Of a stretch of 64,000 nt of DNA, positions 35,879-51,700 are shown piece after piece. The notes beneath the pieces were generated by a model. It had not been told where the DNA came from. It worked only from the letters and a program-made list of their open reading frames with translations, and did no database searches. The translations under genes were made by a program, and so were the position numbers. Position 1 is the first letter of the stretch. Every line of letters starts with the position of its first letter. The stretch is taken from the IMG/VR virus record IMGVR_UViG_3300009104_000009, positions 19,892-83,891 of that record; one strand, written 5' to 3'. The stretch is from a virus.

Positions 35879-36175
35879 ATGTACAAACCGCTTCCACACA
35901 ATATTACAATTAAAGAATCTCCCATTGAAGGCTTAGGCCTTTTCGCAACAGAAAAAATTACAGCACAAACATTGATTGGAATCACTCATCACGCTGATGA
36001 GCGAGCGGAAGATGGGTGGATTAGAACTCCTTTAGGCGGCTTTGGAAATCATTCGGACGATCCCAACTGCTTCAAACTTTTAATGGACCCCAAAACTTTT
36101 TGGATTGGAGCTAATCGAGATATTAAACCTGGAGAAGAACTGACGTGGAGCTATACATTATATAAATGTGACTAA
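35879..36175 (+). CDS. SET-domain protein (lysine methyltransferase fold)
   Basis: SPIEGLGLFA, GNHSDDPNC, DIKPGEELTWSY. Confidence 0.88.
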   Translation: MYKPLPHNITIKESPIEGLGLFATEKITAQTLIGITHHADERAEDGWIRTPLGGFGNHSDDPNCFKLLMDPKTFWIGANRDIKPGEELTWSYTLYKCD

Positions 36176-36698
36176 ACATTTATACGGAGAAAAGAAGATG
36201 CCGATACACAAGCATTTACTTGTCCGCGCAGAAGTAAAGCGCCCGATCACAGAAGAAAAAGAAATTAAAAAATGGTTAAAAAAATTAGTAAATAAAATTG
36301 ATATGAAAATCATTAAGGGTCCTTTCGCAGGCTACGTTCATAAGGATGGAAACCGCGGATTGACAGGCGCCGTAATGATAGAAACAAGTCATATATCAAT
36401 ACATATTTGGGATGAACCAGACCCAGCATTAGTACAATTTGATGTTTATTCATGCGCGGAATATTCTACTAATGAAGTTTTAGCAGAACTTATAATAATG
36501 GAACCAGTTAAAGTTGAACACATGCTTATAGATAGAGATAGTAAACCAGAGGACATTAAACCAGGTCTTTATGGTAGTTGTTTTAAAATGACAAATCATT
36601 CAGTTTCTGAACACAAATCACATCCAAAAATACAAAAATATGATGATGAAGAGCGAAAAGAAATAATCAGAAAAGGTTATATATCTAGTTACGAATAA
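36168..36698 (+). CDS. speD: S-adenosylmethionine decarboxylase proenzyme
   Basis: IETSHISIHIW (autocleavage site) and DVYSC. Confidence 0.85.
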   Translation: MTKHLYGEKKMPIHKHLLVRAEVKRPITEEKEIKKWLKKLVNKIDMKIIKGPFAGYVHKDGNRGLTGAVMIETSHISIHIWDEPDPALVQFDVYSCAEYSTNEVLAELIIMEPVKVEHMLIDRDSKPEDIKPGLYGSCFKMTNHSVSEHKSHPKIQKYDDEERKEIIRKGYISSYE

Positions 36699-37645: not shown

Positions 37646-38482
37646 ATGTCAGAAAATCTTCAAGAAAAACCCGCATTTTGCGATATACCTGGCGGTCCTA
37701 GGGATCCAAATCTTAAAGCACGATGTGCAAAGCCTGATGCTCCCGCCGCGCCTAAAAAACCTGCTGACATTAGATCTAAAGCTCTAACGGACACGGAAAA
37801 GAAAAGAAAAAGAATACAGAGTTTGGGTCTTACACATGAAAGTGAAAAGAAAGAATCTTTCAAGCAATTCAAAGATAGAATTACATTGGAAGCAAATTTA
37901 AATGATTACGTTAAAAAATATAAAATGAAAATGGGTGATAAAACTTCTACAGTAGATAAAGATAAATGGGTTGAAGGTATTGGTGGATTAACTAAGAGAG
38001 AGCAAGCAACCCTAAAACGTGTATTACAAGGACATACCAGAGAAGGTGTAAAGGAAGACGCTGAATTTGCTGATGAGTTAGAATTAGTAGAATTAGCTCC
38101 GGTAATAGGTCTTGCAATAAGGGGTGCCGCGGCTGCTACAAAAACACCGATTAGACGAGCAATTACGAAGCATGTAGTAAAAAAAGCAGTAAACAAAGCA
38201 ACCTCACCTCCTCCACCTTCAAATAATGAAGAAGTAGTAAATGAGAGTAAGGAACTTCAAGCTAAGATGGCGTTAGATGATGCAAAGATTAAGTATAAAG
38301 TAGAAGATGGTAAGATATATGTGGATAAAAAAGATCTTATGAAAGCTGAAAAGACCGTAGCAAAATCATTTAGAGTTAAGCCTAGAAACTTAGATGGGAA
38401 AAAATATCCCGCATTATATTATCACGGCGGAAGTTTAGGCATATGGAATAAGAAAAGACCTATAACAGGAATGGGTAGATGA
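37646..38482 (+). CDS. probable internal head protein (modular)
   Basis: Internal ESFKQFKDRITLEA motif and E-bounded basic modules. Confidence 0.5.
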   Translation: MSENLQEKPAFCDIPGGPRDPNLKARCAKPDAPAAPKKPADIRSKALTDTEKKRKRIQSLGLTHESEKKESFKQFKDRITLEANLNDYVKKYKMKMGDKTSTVDKDKWVEGIGGLTKREQATLKRVLQGHTREGVKEDAEFADELELVELAPVIGLAIRGAAAATKTPIRRAITKHVVKKAVNKATSPPPPSNNEEVVNESKELQAKMALDDAKIKYKVEDGKIYVDKKDLMKAEKTVAKSFRVKPRNLDGKKYPALYYHGGSLGIWNKKRPITGMGR

Positions 38483-38976
38483 GAACGTTTATAGAACATG
38501 TAATAATTGAACAAGAATTACGTATGGATAGAGAATTGCAAAATATTCTTATGATTCATGCTAAAGATTATAAATTATTCAGAGAAGGTAAACAGGAACT
38601 ATCAGAGTTACCTCATTTGTATAATGATTTAGTAAAACATTGGCAGACAGATATGCCGTACGGAGTAACAAAAGCCCGTGAGGGTGACCCCTATGAATGG
38701 ATTGCGAACAAATTGAATAGTATTGAAGAACACGGTGAGCCAATGCCAAAGTCATTAGTTCACAATTGAGCTACACACGTTAAACATCCAAGTTTGGGTG
38801 ATGAAGAATTAGAAGTAATAAGTCACAGTTTAGATGAAGATGGTAGAATAGAACAATACAGAGTTAAACCGCCACGCAATGCTCAAATTGGTTCAACAGT
38901 AGTTCTGCAAGCAGAAGAAGTTACTGTAACTAGAGAGCACAGTCACAAACACAAGGTAAAACCCAAAATTAAATAA
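38479..38976 (+). CDS. putative selenoprotein (165 aa, Sec97) with capsid-targeting-like N-terminus; joins ORF-track 38479-38769 and 38794-38976
   Basis: The TGA at 38767-38769 is followed by an open frame (ATHVKHPSLGDEELEVISHSLDEDGRIEQYRV...) and a SECIS-like hairpin at 38785-38800. Confidence 0.7.
38785..38800 (+). promoter_or_regulatory. SECIS-like hairpin
   Basis: CAUCCA-AGUU-UGGGUG begins 15 nt after the UGA, with the loop G at +23. Confidence 0.65.
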
Positions 38977-38980
38977 TGAA

Positions 38981-39151
38981 ATGAAGACTTTTAAAGAATT
39001 TGGAGCATTCTTCGATGCAACTTTGTCGCAAGATGAAAAAGAGGACATTCCCGTTTTTTCAGATGAGAAGCTTTCAGACACTTCTTACGCAGCCAAAGTT
39101 CGACCAGCTTATAAAGACAAGCAAAAGAAGAAGCAAGTCGATAAATCTTAA
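38981..39151 (+). CDS. small internal head protein candidate (56 aa; not in ORF track)
   Basis: Starts MKTFKEF, close to the T4 capsid-targeting sequence MKTYQEF. Confidence 0.6.
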   Translation: MKTFKEFGAFFDATLSQDEKEDIPVFSDEKLSDTSYAAKVRPAYKDKQKKKQVDKS

Positions 39152-39170
39152 TATATATCATAAATTTTGA

Positions 39171-39710
39171 ATGGATTTATTAAAACATACATACAGCAAT
39201 CTATCCCCTTATAAAAATCACGAGCAAAAATTATATAAGAAGGGCGACAACTGGTATAAAGAAGTCCGTGAAGGATATTTCGATGATTTTGATATTGAAG
39301 CCTTACGTACATATATCGAAGTATATGATTTTATAGACCCTCCAATAACATTGGAATTGGAAGACGGTGTTTTTAAATATGAATGTAGAGACTTATCTAA
39401 GACACATAAACAACTCATAGATATCCCATATAATCGTCAAATCAAAATTCTCGGTAAATTGTTATCAGAGGTAATGCATTCTTTTTTAGAGTTCTCTGAA
39501 GCAAGAGGGAAAGTAGATATTCCAACGCCCAGTAATCCAACAGGAAAAAAAATTTTTTGTCACAGAGACTTAGCTTTTCATAATATCTATGTCGCTGGTG
39601 ATGATATTAAACTAATAGATATTGATTCGTTTATGTGGACTAACAGAGGCGATTTCAAATCCTACTATCAATATACTCTTTTAAGATTGGCACAGCATTT
39701 TGATCACTAA
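39171..39710 (+). CDS. protein-kinase-like phosphotransferase (APH/choline kinase type)
   Basis: CHRDLAFHNIYV...IKLIDID. Confidence 0.7.
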   Translation: MDLLKHTYSNLSPYKNHEQKLYKKGDNWYKEVREGYFDDFDIEALRTYIEVYDFIDPPITLELEDGVFKYECRDLSKTHKQLIDIPYNRQIKILGKLLSEVMHSFLEFSEARGKVDIPTPSNPTGKKIFCHRDLAFHNIYVAGDDIKLIDIDSFMWTNRGDFKSYYQYTLLRLAQHFDH

Positions 39711-40830
39711 ACCTTGCCTAGCACCTTTTAACTCAATTTTTCATAATTATGATGGTGCTACTTCTGTATGCTGTCACAGACCTGTTGAGATCACAGGTAA
39801 GACCCTACACGAGAGCATGCACGATGAGAAACTACAAGCAATAAGAAGAAGTTTCGCTAAAGGAGAGACACCTCCAGAGTGTCGGTTATGTCCTAAGCAG
39901 ATGAGAGAGTATCATACTGAGAATATCTCTAAGAATATTAAAAGTATTTCATTAGAAAATAAGTTCACTCCAGTAGCTGTAGATTTCTTCTGGTCTAATA
40001 AGTGTAATTTCGCATGCTTAGGGTGTGATAGTTATAAGAGCTCAACAATTGATAAGAATTTTAGAGAGATATATGAGATAATAGATCATCAGAGGCCTGT
40101 TCCTAATATAGGATATGATAAGCAAGAGAGATTTGATTATATACTAGAAAATTCCGACAGTATTAGAATAATGCATTTATCGAGTTCCGGAGAACCATGG
40201 ATTGAAGATAATATCTATGAGTTATTAGAGCTCTTAGTAGAGCATAAGTTATTTAACATTGAAATAGCGACCCATACTAATGGAAGTATATTGAATTATA
40301 AGAATAAGAGTATGATTGATATATTAGATAATTGGAATGGTAACGCAACTGTTATAATGAGTAATGACGGTACAGGAAAAAGAGGAGAGTATGTCAGATA
40401 TGGTTATAAAGATAAAATGTGGTTAAGGACGTATAATAAACTAAAAGAATCTAGCATTAACGTATATGTTCACTACTGTATGAACTTATTCAATATAATG
40501 TATCTCAGAGAAGATGCAGAATGGTTTAAAGAGAATTGTGATGATACTGATATACTCTTAAGATATTGGGAATGGCCTTCTTTATTAACGTCTAAGTTTT
40601 TAAAATATTGGGGTGATTTGTATGACGAATCAATTGATTCATTCAATAGCGCGAAATCCTATTATAAGGATTCGGAGTATGCTGAAGATTACCTAAATAC
40701 TATAGGGAGAGGAAATAATTTTAAAGATGATGTTTCGCGATTTAGTTCATTTATACAGAAGATAGATGAAAAAAGAAATACTGATTTTGTAAAAACTTTT
40801 CCAAAGTTGAATGAGATTGTTTTATGGTAG
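39700..40830 (+). CDS. radical SAM protein with N-terminal SPASM/twitch-like Cys cluster
   Basis: C.APF...VCC...ECRLC; CNFACLGC; SGEP; TNG. Confidence 0.85.
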   Translation: MITKPCLAPFNSIFHNYDGATSVCCHRPVEITGKTLHESMHDEKLQAIRRSFAKGETPPECRLCPKQMREYHTENISKNIKSISLENKFTPVAVDFFWSNKCNFACLGCDSYKSSTIDKNFREIYEIIDHQRPVPNIGYDKQERFDYILENSDSIRIMHLSSSGEPWIEDNIYELLELLVEHKLFNIEIATHTNGSILNYKNKSMIDILDNWNGNATVIMSNDGTGKRGEYVRYGYKDKMWLRTYNKLKESSINVYVHYCMNLFNIMYLREDAEWFKENCDDTDILLRYWEWPSLLTSKFLKYWGDLYDESIDSFNSAKSYYKDSEYAEDYLNTIGRGNNFKDDVSRFSSFIQKIDEKRNTDFVKTFPKLNEIVLW

Positions 40831-41504
40831 ATAATTTAAAAGAGATTATTCACAAATCTCAAATATGTCAAAGAAATTGGGATTTGAGTGAAGAGATCCC
40901 TCAAGAGCATGTTGATTTAATTGTAGAAGCAGTTACACAAAGCCCCACCCGTCAAAATATCCCGTTCTATAATGTAGATGTTGTTACAGACAGATCTTTA
41001 ATCAACAGTATCCATAATAATTCTGCTTTTTTTAAAATTAAACCAGGTATGGAGTTATCAGAATATTCTCACGCTGTCGTTAGGGGTTCAGATGTAGAGA
41101 AGGATGAAGATGGTGTTATCACAAAAACTAATCCTCAAGTGCTAGCTCCCTTATTACTTGTTTTTAGTGCTAATGAAGAGACTTATTACGATAATCAGTT
41201 ACGACATGGTAAAGACTCTGCGGAACGTGTTAAGTGGGAAAAAGACGTAAGCCTTTCTATAGGCGTAGCATCTGGATTTGCAAAACTAATATCTACACAA
41301 TTAGGATATGTAAGTGGTTTTTGCGCTTGTTATGGTGAAGAAATAGATAAACTAATAGGATCTTCGGTACGGTTATTTCTTGGGATAGGAAAGCCTGATA
41401 AAAACAAGAAATATACAGAGAGTCATATTGAGGAATTTGAATATCCCAGCTTTAAAGATGTAAAGAGATTAAAACCTGTAAAAGTAGAGTGGCATAATGG
41501 CTAA
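40824..41504 (+). CDS. nitroreductase-family protein
   Basis: SQICQRNWD, SPTRQN, SIGVASG...LGYVSGFCAC, LGIG; paralog of 59021. Confidence 0.78.
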   Translation: MVDNLKEIIHKSQICQRNWDLSEEIPQEHVDLIVEAVTQSPTRQNIPFYNVDVVTDRSLINSIHNNSAFFKIKPGMELSEYSHAVVRGSDVEKDEDGVITKTNPQVLAPLLLVFSANEETYYDNQLRHGKDSAERVKWEKDVSLSIGVASGFAKLISTQLGYVSGFCACYGEEIDKLIGSSVRLFLGIGKPDKNKKYTESHIEEFEYPSFKDVKRLKPVKVEWHNG

Positions 41505-41730
41505 ATGGAAAATCAGATATTGTAGTTCTTGAAACTACAAACCGAACGCAGAAAGTCTTTCTGCTGAAATGAAAAAATTAGGTTATGACGTTGAAATTGA
41601 ACAAGGAGATACTGGACAATTTGAGCTATTTAAATGGTCCACCACATTGTGGATGTCATTTATGAAAGGTGGACATGGAAAGTTCTTTGGAATACAGGAA
41701 GTGACGGAGGCATTAACTAATACGGAGTAA
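41497..41730 (+). CDS. Rdx / SelW-SelT-SelH family selenoprotein (77 aa, CSSU; missing from ORF track)
   Basis: MAKWKIRYCSS-UGA-NYKPNAESLSAEMKKLGYDVEIEQGDTGQFELF...GKF. This is the Rdx IxYCxxU.Y...A..L and GxFE(V/L) pattern, and the gene exactly fills an intergenic gap. Confidence 0.9.
41548..41564 (+). promoter_or_regulatory. SECIS-like hairpin
   Basis: GCAGAA-AGUCU-UUCUGC begins 15 nt after the UGA (41530-41532), with the loop G at +23. Confidence 0.8.
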
Positions 41731-49383: not shown

Positions 49384-50342
49384 AAATTATCGCAGGTAAT
49401 TCAAATAAGGATTTAGCTTTATCAATTGCTCAATATTGTAAACAACCATTATGTGAAATAGAATTAGTTAAATTTGCTGACAATGAAGTGTCATGTATGA
49501 TCAAAGAGAATGTGCGTGGCGAAGATGTATTCATTATTCAGAGTACGTGTAATCCTGCTAATGATCATTTAATGGAGATGTTGGTATTAATAGATGCTTG
49601 TAGGAGAGCATCAGTTAAAAGTGTAACAGCGGTGATTCCTTATTTCGGTTATGCAAGACAAGATAGAAAACCTGTTTCCAGAACACCTATAACATCTAAA
49701 TTAGTAGCTAAGATGTTAGAAGCGGCAGGTGCTGATAGAATAGTAACAATGGATTTACATGCCGGACAGATACAAGGGTTCTTTAATATTCCGGTGGATG
49801 ATTTAAGTTCAAAGCCTTTGTTCGTAGAGGACCTGAAAGCTGGAAGAGAATGGGGTGATATTGAACAAGTAATAATTTCTCCGGATGCTGGTGGAGTTGC
49901 TAGAGCAAGAAAGGTTGCAAAGAAATTAGATCTGGAAATAGCGATCATTGATAAACGTAGAGAAAAAGCTAATCAAGTTGCATCAATGAATGTTATTGGA
50001 GATGTAGAAGGAAAGAGATGTGTTATTGTTGATGATATAATTGATACAGGTGGAACACTTATTCAAGCAGCAGAAGCATTATTAGAAAGAGGTGCTGAAT
50101 CTGTTGAAGCATATATAACACATGGAGTTTTAAGTAAAGGTGGAAAACAAAGAATAGAAGAATCTGAAGCTATAACTAAATTAGTAATAACAGATACAAT
50201 ACCAAATAGTGAATCGTGGATTAATCCTGAAAGACAATTACCAGCTATACAAGCAGTAAGGATATTACCAGTGGCACCTGTATTTGCTGAAGCGATTAGA
50301 AGAATAAATCATAATGAATCAATTTCGATATTATTTGAATGA
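49380..50342 (+). CDS. prs: ribose-phosphate pyrophosphokinase
   Basis: FADNEV, PYFGYARQDRK, DLHAGQIQGFF, SPDAGG, VDDIIDTGGT. Confidence 0.97.
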   Translation: MKIIAGNSNKDLALSIAQYCKQPLCEIELVKFADNEVSCMIKENVRGEDVFIIQSTCNPANDHLMEMLVLIDACRRASVKSVTAVIPYFGYARQDRKPVSRTPITSKLVAKMLEAAGADRIVTMDLHAGQIQGFFNIPVDDLSSKPLFVEDLKAGREWGDIEQVIISPDAGGVARARKVAKKLDLEIAIIDKRREKANQVASMNVIGDVEGKRCVIVDDIIDTGGTLIQAAEALLERGAESVEAYITHGVLSKGGKQRIEESEAITKLVITDTIPNSESWINPERQLPAIQAVRILPVAPVFAEAIRRINHNESISILFE

Positions 50343-51700
50343 ATCCTAAAACACATCCGACATATTGTCACTATCCATTTAAAGCCATGACTTTTAAGAA
50401 GTGGTCTAAGGATGGTAAGAGACCTATTAATGTTACACCTTGCTGTATGATGATGAATCCTGTAGAGCAAGAAGATGAGGAACCGGATAAGCATTATAAT
50501 ATGGGGCTTACCGAAGATGTGTTAAAGGGAAAGAATCCTTTAGAAATATTTAATTCGGAACCATATGAAAAGCTAAGAAATGATTTATCAAATGGTATAA
50601 AGAATGAAGCATGTACTGTTTGCTGGAAACAAGAAGAAGACGGTTTAGAATCATTTAGACAATGTTCTGATTTATATGGTGGTTCTGAAGGTTTATTTGA
50701 GTTTGACATAACCCTTTCTAACCTATGCAATTTAGCGTGTAGAATGTGCAATATGGGAAGTTCTCACCAAATAGGTAAGGATATAAAGGAATTGATCAAG
50801 ACAGGTTATTATGATGACTTTCAGGAGGCTAGCAATAGAGCAATGCCACAAGAGAAAGGTGTTGTATATGATTCTTCTTCAAATGATGTTATTGATTGGT
50901 TGATGAATAATACTCATCAGATAACAATGTTGAAAGCATCTGGTGGAGAACCTTTTTACGATAGAAGAGTTATAAAGGTATTAGAAAAATATGCTAAAGA
51001 TGGAACTGCAAAGAATACAACATTAAAGTTTCATACTAATGCTACTCAGTTTACACCCGAGTTAGCAAATTTATTAAATGAATTTAAAAGTCAAAATCAT
51101 ACGTTTAGTATAGATGGTACAGGTAAGGTTTATAATTATATTCGACATCTATCTGATTGGGATAAATTAAATGAGAGTCTAGATAATTATTTCAGTACAT
51201 GTACTAATATCGACAATCAATATTTTAATATGGTATTGTCTGGTCTTAATGTTTTAAATGCGGCTGACTATATAGAATGGGTTTGTAATAAATGTGAATA
51301 TTATAATGTTCCTAATTACTATATACATTTTTCAGAAATTTTTCCATATAATAGAGGAACAGCAGTTAGGAATGTATATAATCATTTGTTAGAAAAAGCT
51401 CTAGATAGAATTATAGAAATTATAGATGATGGTATAGCGTATGTTGCTCCTTCAGATACAGTTCAAGCTACTATAAGGGGCAAAGAATATAAAGCATGGT
51501 ATAGATTTGATTTACATAATCTAGTAGCACAAATACAAAACGGTATAAAGTTTGGTAATGGTACCTTTAAAAAATTAAAAGTAGAAACTGTTCTCCTAGA
51601 TCATGTTAGAGATCAGTGGTATGGGGATTACTTAGATAGAGACTTAACCGATCACTTAATTAAAGAGATTGTTATGCATCCCGATATACCGACGTTTTAA
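50339..51700 (+). CDS. radical SAM protein with SPASM/twitch-like Cys cluster
   Basis: YCHYPF, PCC, ACTVCW, CNLACRMC, SGGEPF, HTN, SIDG. Confidence 0.88.
   Translation: MNPKTHPTYCHYPFKAMTFKKWSKDGKRPINVTPCCMMMNPVEQEDEEPDKHYNMGLTEDVLKGKNPLEIFNSEPYEKLRNDLSNGIKNEACTVCWKQEEDGLESFRQCSDLYGGSEGLFEFDITLSNLCNLACRMCNMGSSHQIGKDIKELIKTGYYDDFQEASNRAMPQEKGVVYDSSSNDVIDWLMNNTHQITMLKASGGEPFYDRRVIKVLEKYAKDGTAKNTTLKFHTNATQFTPELANLLNEFKSQNHTFSIDGTGKVYNYIRHLSDWDKLNESLDNYFSTCTNIDNQYFNMVLSGLNVLNAADYIEWVCNKCEYYNVPNYYIHFSEIFPYNRGTAVRNVYNHLLEKALDRIIEIIDDGIAYVAPSDTVQATIRGKEYKAWYRFDLHNLVAQIQNGIKFGNGTFKKLKVETVLLDHVRDQWYGDYLDRDLTDHLIKEIVMHPDIPTF

What the first reader, a model, noticed from the sequence alone, without database searches (positions are those of the whole stretch)
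38479..41730. Phage selenoprotein system: two in-frame UGA genes with the same SECIS geometry
Seen in sequence: two unrelated genes about 2.8 kb apart each have an in-frame TGA followed by an open frame. In both, a 15-nt unstructured spacer (gctacacacgttaaa; aactacaaaccgaac) precedes a 6-7-bp hairpin, and AAGU falls at +21..+24 with G at +23. Established: bacterial Sec insertion needs a hairpin just 3' of the UGA with an apical G(U), read by SelB. TGA is an ordinary stop elsewhere in this window (many ATGA overlaps), so this is site-specific recoding rather than a changed genetic code. Inference: the phage uses a Sec-competent host's SelA/SelB/SelD/tRNA-Sec, since none is visible here. That constrains the host range and means standard gene callers miss these genes.
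Basis: partly seen in the sequence, partly recalled or inferred. Interest (0 to 1): 0.93.

Follow-up and report, generated by a model that had tools for sequence, protein, structure and literature searches.

The report
Two selenoprotein genes in marine phage
An uncultured marine T4-like phage carries two small genes whose internal UGA "stop" is almost certainly read as selenocysteine by the host's machinery: one is a SelW-type redox protein, the other founds a phage-only selenoprotein family, and I found no published report of selenoproteins encoded by viruses of bacteria.

Summary
Both observations hold, and the selenocysteine (Sec) reading is well supported by comparison, though not by experiment.

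- **Site 2 (41497-41730):** a 77-aa Rdx/SelW-family protein with a YCSSU (CxxU) motif. Seventeen related viral loci keep TGA at this codon, plus a hairpin with a GUC/GGC loop.
- **Site 1 (38479-38976):** a 165-aa protein with a conserved H-x-U-A-T-H motif. 58 viral or metagenome loci (40 distinct sequences, window included) all keep TGA there. Cyanophage-type homologues have Cys at that column. Many downstream halves have no start codon at all. The hairpin survives with four different sequences, always with GU in the loop.
- **Shared geometry:** in both sites the stem starts at nt 19 and G26-U27 sit in the loop (U of UGA = 1).
- **Not a changed code:** TGA ends 32 of 88 long ORFs.
- **No Sec machinery in the phage:** no tRNA-Sec, selA, selB or selD in this 84-kb record. 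A complete 134.5-kb relative has no tRNA-Sec, selB or selD, so the host must supply them. The host is unknown.
- **Earlier notes:** this scan had already noted SelW-like phage selenoproteins on other DNA. The site-1 family had only first-reader notes on this same genome.

The parts
38479..38976 (+). Selenoprotein gene 1 (165 aa with Sec97). It has a CTS-like leader, a widespread phage N-terminal domain (MPYG..KAR.GDPYEW), and a His-rich H-N-U-A-T-H small beta-barrel module with a basic tail.
   Evidence: Read-through translation. The same in-frame TGA is present in L018, L098-L101, L103 and L112-L163. Cys homologues align at the TGA column. AF2 model of the module: pLDDT 79.8, five strands.
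38479..38511 (+). N-terminal leader MRTFIEHVIIE, which resembles the T4 capsid targeting sequence MKTYQEFIAE.
   Evidence: Sequence. The T4 CTS is quoted from PMC8442874. Stand-alone relatives start MKT[FY]xE[FM]. The packaging role is an inference.
38767..38769 (+). UGA read as Sec (residue 97).
   Evidence: TGA in all 58 related loci, never TGG, TGT, TAA or TAG. The terminal stops of the same genes vary.
38785..38800 (+). SECIS-like hairpin 1: CAUCCA-AGUU-UGGGUG, nt 19-34 from the U of UGA, with G26 U27 in the loop.
   Evidence: Fold. In the closest relatives the only stem change is U21/C21, which keeps its pair with G32. Third positions of the hairpin codons CCA, AGT and TTG are frozen in 20 sequences, while spacer third positions vary. 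Other family branches have different hairpins with GU loops.
41497..41730 (+). Selenoprotein gene 2: 77-aa Rdx/SelW-like protein, YCSSU motif, Sec12. Its ATG overlaps the end of the upstream gene.
   Evidence: Pfam PF10262 at 31 bits, above the 22.6 cut-off. NCBIfam SelT/W/H models E 3e-10 and 2.6e-5. AF2 pLDDT 87.4, and the best PDB matches are SelW-related proteins with TM 0.65-0.75. 17 viral loci carry the same TGA.
41530..41532 (+). UGA read as Sec (residue 12, CxxU).
   Evidence: TGA in 17 of 17 related loci. The terminal stops of these genes are TAA, TGA or TAG.
41548..41564 (+). SECIS-like hairpin 2: GCAGAAA-GUC-UUUCUGC, nt 19-35 from the U of UGA, with G26 U27 in the loop.
   Evidence: Fold. 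96.9% of cells are paired in 14 sequences, against 35-68% when the partner is slid; there are G-U/G-C exchanges and one compensatory pair. Contigs of relatives align only over 41530-41573.

Best explanation
The window belongs to an uncultured marine T4-like phage that encodes two selenoproteins. In each gene one UGA is recoded to selenocysteine by the bacterial mechanism: a hairpin inside the coding sequence, starting 15 nt after the UGA and showing G-U in its apical loop, would recruit the host's SelB carrying Sec-tRNA(Sec) to the ribosome.

Gene 2 is a SelW/Rdx-type thioredoxin-fold protein with a CxxU redox motif. Gene 1 carries a phage-specific small beta-barrel module in which Sec, three invariant His, one Gly and one Tyr are conserved. 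Relatives in cyanophages have Cys at that position. Sec there most likely serves as a redox or metal-binding residue.

The phage carries no Sec machinery of its own, so it depends on a Sec-competent host.

Shown here: the conserved TGA, the conserved frames, the Cys/Sec pairing, the conserved or rebuilt hairpins, and family and fold membership of gene 2. Inferred: that Sec is actually inserted, that SelB reads these hairpins, and the biochemical role of either protein.
For: **Site 2**
- Pfam Rdx hit above the cut-off, covering the CxxU.
- The predicted fold matches solved SelW-related proteins (2fa8, 2p0g, 3dex; TM 0.65-0.75).
- 17 of 17 viral relatives keep TGA after KYC[GSV]S, with conserved protein sequence on both sides.
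- Their true stops vary.
- The helix is 96.9% paired.

**Site 1**
- TGA in all 58 related loci.
- The motif K-[AS]-[IL]-x-H-[DN]-U-A-T-H straddles the TGA even where the upstream part is only 23 residues (L103).
- In 12 of the 40 distinct sequences the downstream part (61-147 codons) has no ATG, GTG or TTG at all.
- Cys occupies the column in P0025, P0027, P0032, P0036, P0041, P0053, P0054 and P0057. Those Cys forms sit in Prochlorococcus and Synechococcus myophages.
- Spacer codons vary at third positions while hairpin codons are frozen.
- Four different hairpin sequences all keep a GU loop.

**Both sites**
- Identical placement: stem from nt 19, G26 U27 in the loop.
- TGA is a normal stop in 32 of 88 ORFs.
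- No suppressor tRNA or tRNA-Sec in the window or record.
- The same DNA is present in marine metagenome runs from three or more studies. Nucleotide-level matches from relatives pile up exactly on UGA + 44 nt.
Against: - There is no direct evidence of selenium incorporation.
- The host is unknown, so the presence of selA, selB, selC and selD in it is untested.
- The hairpins are short (6-7 bp), not more stable than shuffled sequence, and not rarer than chance as a bare pattern.
- Covariation at site 2 is weak: one compensatory pair, and 134 of 500 shuffles reach the observed score.
- No Rfam model matches.
- P0002 is below the curated cut-offs of the NCBIfam SelT/W/H models.
- The loop G lies 3 nt further from the UGA than in E. 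coli fdhF (from memory).
- The record is only 46% complete, so phage-borne Sec genes cannot be excluded for this phage itself.
Confidence: 0.86

Rival explanations
1. The UGA is read through without selenium. The downstream hairpin stimulates ordinary stop-codon read-through by a near-cognate tRNA (Trp, Cys or Arg). This would give a short and a long product; at site 1, an N-domain protein alone plus a minor fusion to the beta-barrel module.
For: - A stop followed by a hairpin is also the layout of programmed read-through.
- At site 1 the 96-aa product ending at the UGA resembles stand-alone forms of the N-domain that end nearby (L019-L021).
- No Sec machinery is seen in the phage.
Against: - The UGA sits at a column that is Cys in homologues, and at the second redox position of a CxxU/CxxC motif. 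Residue identity therefore matters.
- In stand-alone relatives the pre-UGA part is only 23 residues, and at site 2 only 11. A short product makes no sense there.
- The fixed hairpin distance and the GU loop fit SelB-type elements.
Confidence: 0.06
2. TGA is decoded as tryptophan (code 4-like), either generally or late in infection through a phage suppressor tRNA. Some database gene calls imply this by placing W at this position.
For: - Twelve or more database proteins of the site-1 family carry W at the column.
- Phages with recoded stop codons are known (from my own knowledge).
Against: - All 52 fetched loci of those 'W' relatives have TGA, not TGG. The W is therefore a caller's choice of code.
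- TGA terminates 32 of 88 long ORFs here, many in ATGA overlaps.
- The four tRNAs in the window are Asn, Tyr, Gly and Asp.
- No natural homologue has a TGG codon there, while Cys homologues exist.
Confidence: 0.03
3. The TGAs are true stops. The downstream frames are separate small genes, or decaying remnants, that happen to lie in the same frame. Alternatively the TGAs are sequencing errors.
For: - Standard ORF calling gives separate pieces: 38479-38769 and 38794-38976, and 41569-41730.
- Database callers report only the C-terminal pieces of the SelW-like gene.
Against: - Protein conservation runs straight across the TGA.
- The codons between the TGA and any possible start evolve by synonymous changes in that frame.
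- Many relatives have no start codon downstream.
- The stop is always TGA, while real stops vary.
- Independent assemblies agree.
Confidence: 0.02

Closest known systems
[quoted passage not shown]
   Same: - CxxU motif after the first strand.
- About 75-aa thioredoxin-like fold.
- In-frame UGA followed at once by a coding-region hairpin.
- Gene callers truncate it.
   Different: - Encoded by a T4-like phage rather than a cell.
- Divergent: below the NCBIfam cut-offs, and no close cellular relative was found.
- It forms its own viral clade, 17 loci, with a strongly conserved Y-C-x-S-U-N-Y-[KR]-P..A-E-S-L-S-A stretch.
E. coli fdhF-type bacterial SECIS read by SelB
   Same: - The hairpin lies in the coding sequence just 3' of the UGA.
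- G-U is exposed in the apical loop.
- Some branches of the site-1 family even have the fdhF loop GGUC (L140-L163).
- The site-2 stem GCAG...CUGC resembles the fdhF upper stem (from memory).
   Different: - The loop G is at nt 26 rather than 23 (U of UGA = 1).
- No bulged U.
- The stem is only 6-7 bp.
- The SelB that would read it is unknown.
- No Rfam model matches.
Poxvirus selenoproteins (molluscum contagiosum GPx1-like, fowlpox GPx4-like; PMC8310308)
   Same: A virus-encoded selenoprotein that relies wholly on the host's Sec machinery.
   Different: - Those are captured eukaryotic glutathione peroxidases with eukaryote-type SECIS.
- Here the viruses infect bacteria, the signal is the bacterial in-frame type, and one of the two families has no cellular counterpart.
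Cys-containing domain of cyanomyophage proteins (PHROG phrog_22379 / phrog_11470, function unknown; e.g. P-HM1/P-HM2 'possible cytitidyltransferase', S-ShM2, S-RIM14 hypothetical proteins)
   Same: Homologous module with invariant His-x-Cys/Sec, His, Gly, Tyr and His.
   Different: - Cys instead of Sec.
- Found in phages of Prochlorococcus and Synechococcus.
- Often part of longer proteins.
- The match of the window's protein to phrog_22379 is weak (E 5e-4).
T4 internal proteins (IPI/II/III) with the capsid targeting sequence MKTYQEFIAE (PMC8442874, PMC3012670)
   Same: - Leader of type M-[KR]-T-[FY]-x-E-[FH], with a hydrophobic-x-Glu site about 10 residues in.
- Small and diverse, with a basic tail.
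- At least five such leaders occur in this phage.
   Different: - No sequence similarity beyond the leader.
- Packaging and cleavage are untested.
- More distant branches of the Sec family lack this leader.

Membership tests
Bacterial-type selenoprotein gene (Sec-UGA plus in-frame SECIS) | In-frame UGA conserved in homologues, with protein conservation on both sides | tested here: met
   Site 2: 17 of 17 loci. Site 1: 58 of 58 loci, 40 distinct sequences with the window.
Bacterial-type selenoprotein gene (Sec-UGA plus in-frame SECIS) | Cys-containing homologues align Cys with the UGA | tested here: met
   Site 1: Cys in eight representative clusters. Site 2: the CxxU aligns with the CxxC of Rdx-family structures and models.
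Bacterial-type selenoprotein gene (Sec-UGA plus in-frame SECIS) | Hairpin immediately 3' of the UGA with G(U) in the apical loop, kept in relatives | tested here: met
   The hairpin is rebuilt with four different sequences at site 1. As a bare pattern it is not rarer than chance.
Bacterial-type selenoprotein gene (Sec-UGA plus in-frame SECIS) | tRNA-Sec, SelA, SelB and SelD available in the translating cell | not testable with these tools
   Absent from the 84-kb record. Related viral records, including a complete 134.5-kb one, were searched for tRNA-Sec, selB and selD and lack them. The host is unidentified.
Bacterial-type selenoprotein gene (Sec-UGA plus in-frame SECIS) | Selenium actually incorporated at the UGA | not testable with these tools
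   Needs 75Se labelling or mass spectrometry.
Rdx / SelW-SelT-SelH family (PF10262) | Match to the family model above its curated cut-off | tested here: met
   Pfam 31 bits against 22.6, residues 5-68.
Rdx / SelW-SelT-SelH family (PF10262) | CxxU/CxxC motif between strand 1 and helix 1, and a thioredoxin-like beta-alpha-beta-beta-beta-alpha fold | tested here: met
   YCSSU at residues 8-12. The AF2 model (pLDDT 87.4) has the element order E-H-E-E-E-H. The top Foldseek hits are SelW-related proteins 2oka, 3dex, 2fa8 and 2p0g, TM up to 0.75. This is a predicted structure, not a solved one.
NCBIfam TIGR02174 (CXXU_selWTH) / NF041051 | Score above the curated cut-off | tested here: not met
   24.4 against 34.2 bits, and 40.1 against 88 bits, although the E-values are significant. 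This is a divergent branch, not a member of these narrower models.
Reassigned genetic code (TGA = Trp, table 4) | TGA not used as a stop, and a tRNA reading UGA | tested here: not met
   TGA ends 32 of 88 long ORFs. No such tRNA is present.
T4-type internal (capsid-targeted) proteins | N-terminal capsid targeting sequence of about 10 residues ending in a hydrophobic-x-Glu protease site | tested here: inconclusive
   MRTFIEHVIIE and MKT[FY]xE[FM] compared with the T4 sequence MKTYQEFIAE. This is likeness of a short motif only.
T4-type internal (capsid-targeted) proteins | Presence in the virion and cleavage by the prohead protease | not testable with these tools
   Needs virion proteomics.

The most novel reading that the evidence does not exclude
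A broad clade of marine T4-like phages has its own small 'selenoproteome' made with the host's Sec machinery. One member, the His-rich H-x-U-A-T-H beta-barrel with a T4-like capsid-targeting leader and a poly-Lys tail, would be packaged in the head and injected with the DNA. There its Sec/His centre would act as a redox or metal site early in infection. Cys-for-Sec replacement in cyanophages would then track whether the host can make Sec, so the codon would be a readable marker of host range.
Probability: 0.25. Interest if true: 0.88.

Novelty: new variant of a known kind. Interest (0 to 1): 0.78.

Why it matters
- **Literature:** a 2021 recoding review (PMC8310308) names only two viruses with a selenoprotein gene, both poxviruses. 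The bacterial selenoprotein resources I checked do not mention phages. My searches found no report of a selenoprotein encoded by a virus of bacteria.
- **Scale:** these genes are not oddities of one contig. 17 and 58 related loci in marine viromes keep the codon and the hairpin.
- **Annotation:** standard gene callers truncate or split these genes, or wrongly switch to code 4. Viral annotation is therefore wrong in the same way at every such locus.
- **Host range:** the phages must infect Sec-competent hosts, which is a testable constraint on host assignment for an abundant uncultured group.
- **New family:** the site-1 family is a selenoprotein family without a cellular counterpart and with an unusual His-rich setting for Sec. 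It differs from the new families of the GOS survey (GOS_A and GOS_B by sequence, GOS_C by its described Trx-like UxxC), and its motifs are absent from the parts of that survey's datasets that are held.
- **Tools:** short phage SECIS elements could also be useful parts for Sec incorporation systems.

Tried and rejected
Related DNA came from the search for related loci instead.
- blastn (distant) of the whole stretch against 50,697 GenBank phages: no match.
- tblastn of either Sec protein against the same phages: no match.
- First viral scan with the single SelW-like protein: nothing confirmed. The alignment-based scan worked.
- P0001 has no relative inside the SelW loci L001-L017, so the two genes are not a conserved pair.
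- The genome-contig scan gave one hit only, on a 2.2-kb contig binned to a Nitrososphaerales MAG. This gives no host information.
- L104 and L105 from the metagenome scan are chance matches of HPSLGEEEL in an unrelated enzyme.
- Rfam at a permissive threshold: no SECIS family, only two chance snoRNA rows.
- The bare geometry pattern is not above chance. Single-sequence folding z-scores are unremarkable.
- Fold of the site-1 module: only generic SH3/KOW/Tudor-like barrels (Foldseek E at least 0.23; VIA Z at most 5.0). No functional lead.
- No Pfam or NCBIfam family for P0001.
- No RNA holder was listed among the sequencing runs, so nothing can be said about expression.
- The strings UATH, UASH, HPSLG, EEYYV and similar are absent from the GOS 2008 supplementary datasets as held. 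Dataset S1 was cut when stored.
- Host identification was not achieved. The closest cultured phages by gp46 are Methylophilales phage Melnitz (49.6% aa) and cyanomyophages (about 47%).

Full report
**What the window is.** The window is bases 19892-83891 of an 83,891-nt IMG/VR virus record that CheckV rates 46% complete.
- GC content is about 30-41%, and all long ORFs lie on the + strand.
- It has four tRNAs: Asn, Tyr, Gly and Asp.
- It has a T4 gp46-type recombination nuclease. The closest cultured relatives by that protein are Methylophilales phage Melnitz (49.6% aa) and cyanomyophages (about 47%).
- Near-identical DNA is held by nine marine metagenome runs from three studies.

So this is an uncultured marine T4-like phage.

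**The observation.**
- Site 1: ATG at 38479, TGA at 38767, and an open frame to TAA at 38974-38976, giving 165 aa on read-through.
- Site 2: ATG at 41497, which overlaps the end of the upstream gene. TGA is at 41530, and the frame is open to TAA at 41728-41730, giving 77 aa.
- Both TGAs are followed by a 15-nt spacer and then a 6- or 7-bp hairpin. With the U of UGA as nt 1, the stem starts at nt 19 and G26-U27 lie in the loop in both.
- TGA is a normal stop in 32 of 88 long ORFs.

As a bare pattern this geometry is not rarer than chance: 4 hits against 4.7 in shuffles. The hairpins are also not unusually stable. The case therefore rests on comparison with relatives.

**Site 2 is a SelW/Rdx-type selenoprotein.**
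- The read-through protein begins MAKWKIRYCSSU. It matches Pfam Rdx above the curated cut-off (31 against 22.6 bits, residues 5-68).
- It matches the NCBIfam SelT/SelW/SelH models significantly, but below their cut-offs.
- An AlphaFold model built on 14 phage sequences (pLDDT 87.4) has the beta-alpha-beta-beta-beta-alpha order. Its best PDB matches are bacterial SelW-related proteins (2oka, 3dex, 2fa8, 2p0g; TM 0.65-0.75) and MIEN1.
- A profile search of PDB sequences aligns the CxxU with their CxxC.
- Database gene callers report only the 51-58-aa C-terminal piece.
- In IMG/VR, 17 loci encode relatives at 44-64% identity. All 17 have TGA after KYC[GSV]S, followed by N-Y-[KR]-P-x-A-E-S-L-S-A.
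- The true stops of these same genes are TAA, TGA or TAG.
- The hairpin GCAGAAA-GUC-UUUCUGC is 96.9% paired over 14 sequences, against 35-68% when the 3' partner is slid. It shows G-U/G-C exchanges and one compensatory pair. The covariation score itself is not beyond the shuffles.

**Site 1 founds a phage-only selenoprotein family.** No Pfam or NCBIfam family matches it.
- The N-terminal ~80 residues (motif MPYG..KAR.GDPYEW) form a widespread phage domain, with 256 viral loci. It usually carries other C-terminal tails, or none.
- The part around the TGA is a separate module. The motif K-[AS]-[IL]-x-H-[DN]-U-A-T-H-[VI]-x-H-P-S-L-G straddles the TGA in L018, L098-L101 and L103. In L103 only 23 residues precede the TGA.
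- A profile of the module, searched against 1.84 billion representatives, found 46 relatives.
- At the TGA column, eight relatives have Cys and twelve have 'W'.
- I fetched 52 viral loci of the 'W' group. Every one has TGA and none has TGG. The W is therefore an artefact of callers switching to code 4.
- The Cys forms map to Prochlorococcus and Synechococcus myophages (P-HM1/2, MED4-213, S-ShM2, S-RIM14) and to PHROGs of unknown function.
- Across 40 distinct sequences the internal stop is always TGA, while terminal stops vary. In 12 of them the downstream 61-147 codons hold no ATG, GTG or TTG at all, so they cannot be separate genes.
- In the 20 closest sequences, the spacer codons after the TGA vary almost only at third positions. 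The hairpin codons CCA, AGT and TTG are frozen.
- More distant branches encode different amino acids there, yet still form a hairpin with GU in the loop. The four forms are:
  - CAUCCA-AGUU-UGGGUG
  - CACCCA-GGUC-UGGGUG
  - GCUCCUC-CGUUU-GGGGAGU
  - GCACC-GGUC-GGUGC
- Contigs of relatives in four marine runs align to the window only over 38761-38801 and 41530-41573. This produces depth spikes exactly on the two UGA-hairpin stretches.
- Contigs from three further studies span the sites with no listed difference at either TGA, which rules out an assembly error.

**What the site-1 protein may do.** The module models as a five-strand small beta-barrel (pLDDT 79.8). It has only generic SH3/KOW/Tudor likeness.
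- The invariant columns are His-2, Sec/Cys, a His in H-S-L, a Gly, a Tyr and a His in H-x-H near the C-terminus. A poly-Lys tail follows.
- This pattern suggests a metal or redox centre. That is inference only.
- The window's protein starts MRTFIEHVIIE, and the stand-alone relatives start MKT[FY]xE[FM]. The next gene starts MKTFKEF, and three further ORFs start with similar leaders.
- The T4 capsid targeting sequence is MKTYQEFIAE (PMC8442874). T4 internal proteins are diverse apart from that leader (PMC3012670).
- A virion-packaged, injected selenoprotein is therefore a reasonable hypothesis but is untested.

**Source of the Sec machinery.**
- The 84-kb record has no tRNA-Sec, selA, selB or selD.
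- The below-threshold tRNA-Sec hits here and in relatives fall on ordinary tRNA genes; those checked in relatives with ARAGORN are tRNA-Tyr.
- A 100%-complete 134.5-kb relative that carries the SelW-like gene has no tRNA-Sec, selB or selD. Partial records of up to eight others also lack those searched for.
- Bacterial Sec insertion needs a SECIS immediately downstream of the UGA, plus SelA, SelB, tRNA-Sec and SelD (PMC12013277). The host must therefore provide these factors.
- The host is not identified.
- The Cys versions sit in phages of Prochlorococcus and Synechococcus. This fits host dependence if those cyanobacteria lack Sec, which I recall but did not test.

**Rivals.**
- Sec-independent read-through (0.06) does not explain why the codon sits at a Cys / CxxC column, nor why the pre-UGA pieces are 11-23 residues long.
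- TGA = Trp (0.03) is contradicted by the use of TGA as a stop, the lack of a matching tRNA, and the absence of any TGG homologue.
- True stops or sequencing errors (0.02) are contradicted by all the comparative data.

[quoted passage not shown] Three things are new.
- The carrier is a virus of bacteria. A 2021 recoding review names only two poxviruses with a selenoprotein gene (PMC8310308). A marine trace-element survey reports few or no viral sequences in the selenoprotein families it examined (PMC9402790). The bacterial selenoprotein tools and databases I checked do not mention phages. Five literature searches found no such report.
- The site-1 family is a selenoprotein family with no cellular counterpart. 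It differs from GOS_A and GOS_B by sequence and from GOS_C by its described Trx-like UxxC.
- The scale: 75 related loci in total.

Earlier notes of this scan already reported SelW-like phage selenoproteins on other genomes. First-reader notes on this same genome proposed the HxU family and the capsid-targeting leaders. I tested those proposals here. I rate this a new variant of a known kind, with interest 0.78.

Noticed in passing
window 38981-39151: The gene right after selenoprotein gene 1 encodes a 56-aa protein that starts MKTFKEF, very like the T4 capsid targeting sequence, and ends in a Lys-rich tail. It has no PHROG match.
   Followed up: partly
window 18798, 19997, 23757 (ORF starts): Three more ORFs begin with T4-CTS-like leaders: MKKFKEYF, MKSFRTFIKVE and MESFKKFIVEA. 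The phage seems to have a family of candidate capsid-targeted proteins (lead from earlier first-reader notes).
   Followed up: partly
window 38479-38730, and loci L019-L097: The N-terminal domain of gene 1 (DLYDALY..MPYG..KAR.GDPYEW) is a very widespread phage domain, with 256 viral loci. It is fused to many unrelated C-terminal tails. In L019-L021 the gene ends at about residue 82 of the query, without the Sec module.
   Followed up: partly
database proteins P0006, P0007, P0012-P0024: Public gene calls for this family put W at the Sec codon, which means the callers used genetic code 4 on these AT-rich contigs. This annotation error recurs across the database and hides the selenoproteins.
   Followed up: yes
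L164 (JAKUSK010000076.1, 2,240 nt): The only hit for the phage SelW-like gene in 185,579 species genomes is a 2.2-kb contig binned into a Nitrososphaerales MAG from Station ALOHA. It is probably a mis-binned phage fragment.
   Followed up: no
window 39700-40830 and 50339-51700: Two radical SAM proteins. The first also has a weak SPASM-domain match at its N-terminus. They lie between and after the two selenoprotein genes.
   Followed up: no
window 36168-36698: An ORF matches the PHROG for S-adenosylmethionine decarboxylase (E 2e-17). It is a possible polyamine auxiliary metabolic gene.
   Followed up: no
window 38697-38805 and 41531-41639: In four marine metagenome runs the summed contig depth spikes two- to twenty-fold on these two bins. 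Short contigs from other phages match only the UGA-hairpin stretches. One of them reads ...R-Y-C-V-A-UGA, a further CxxU variant.
   Followed up: partly
L018, L098-L100 (downstream of the Sec module): In the closest relatives the Sec protein runs on for about 55 more residues, a Lys/Arg-rich tail ending MSMKKRRAIGNM. The window's gene stops earlier, and L101 has an intermediate form. The C-terminus is being remodelled.
   Followed up: no
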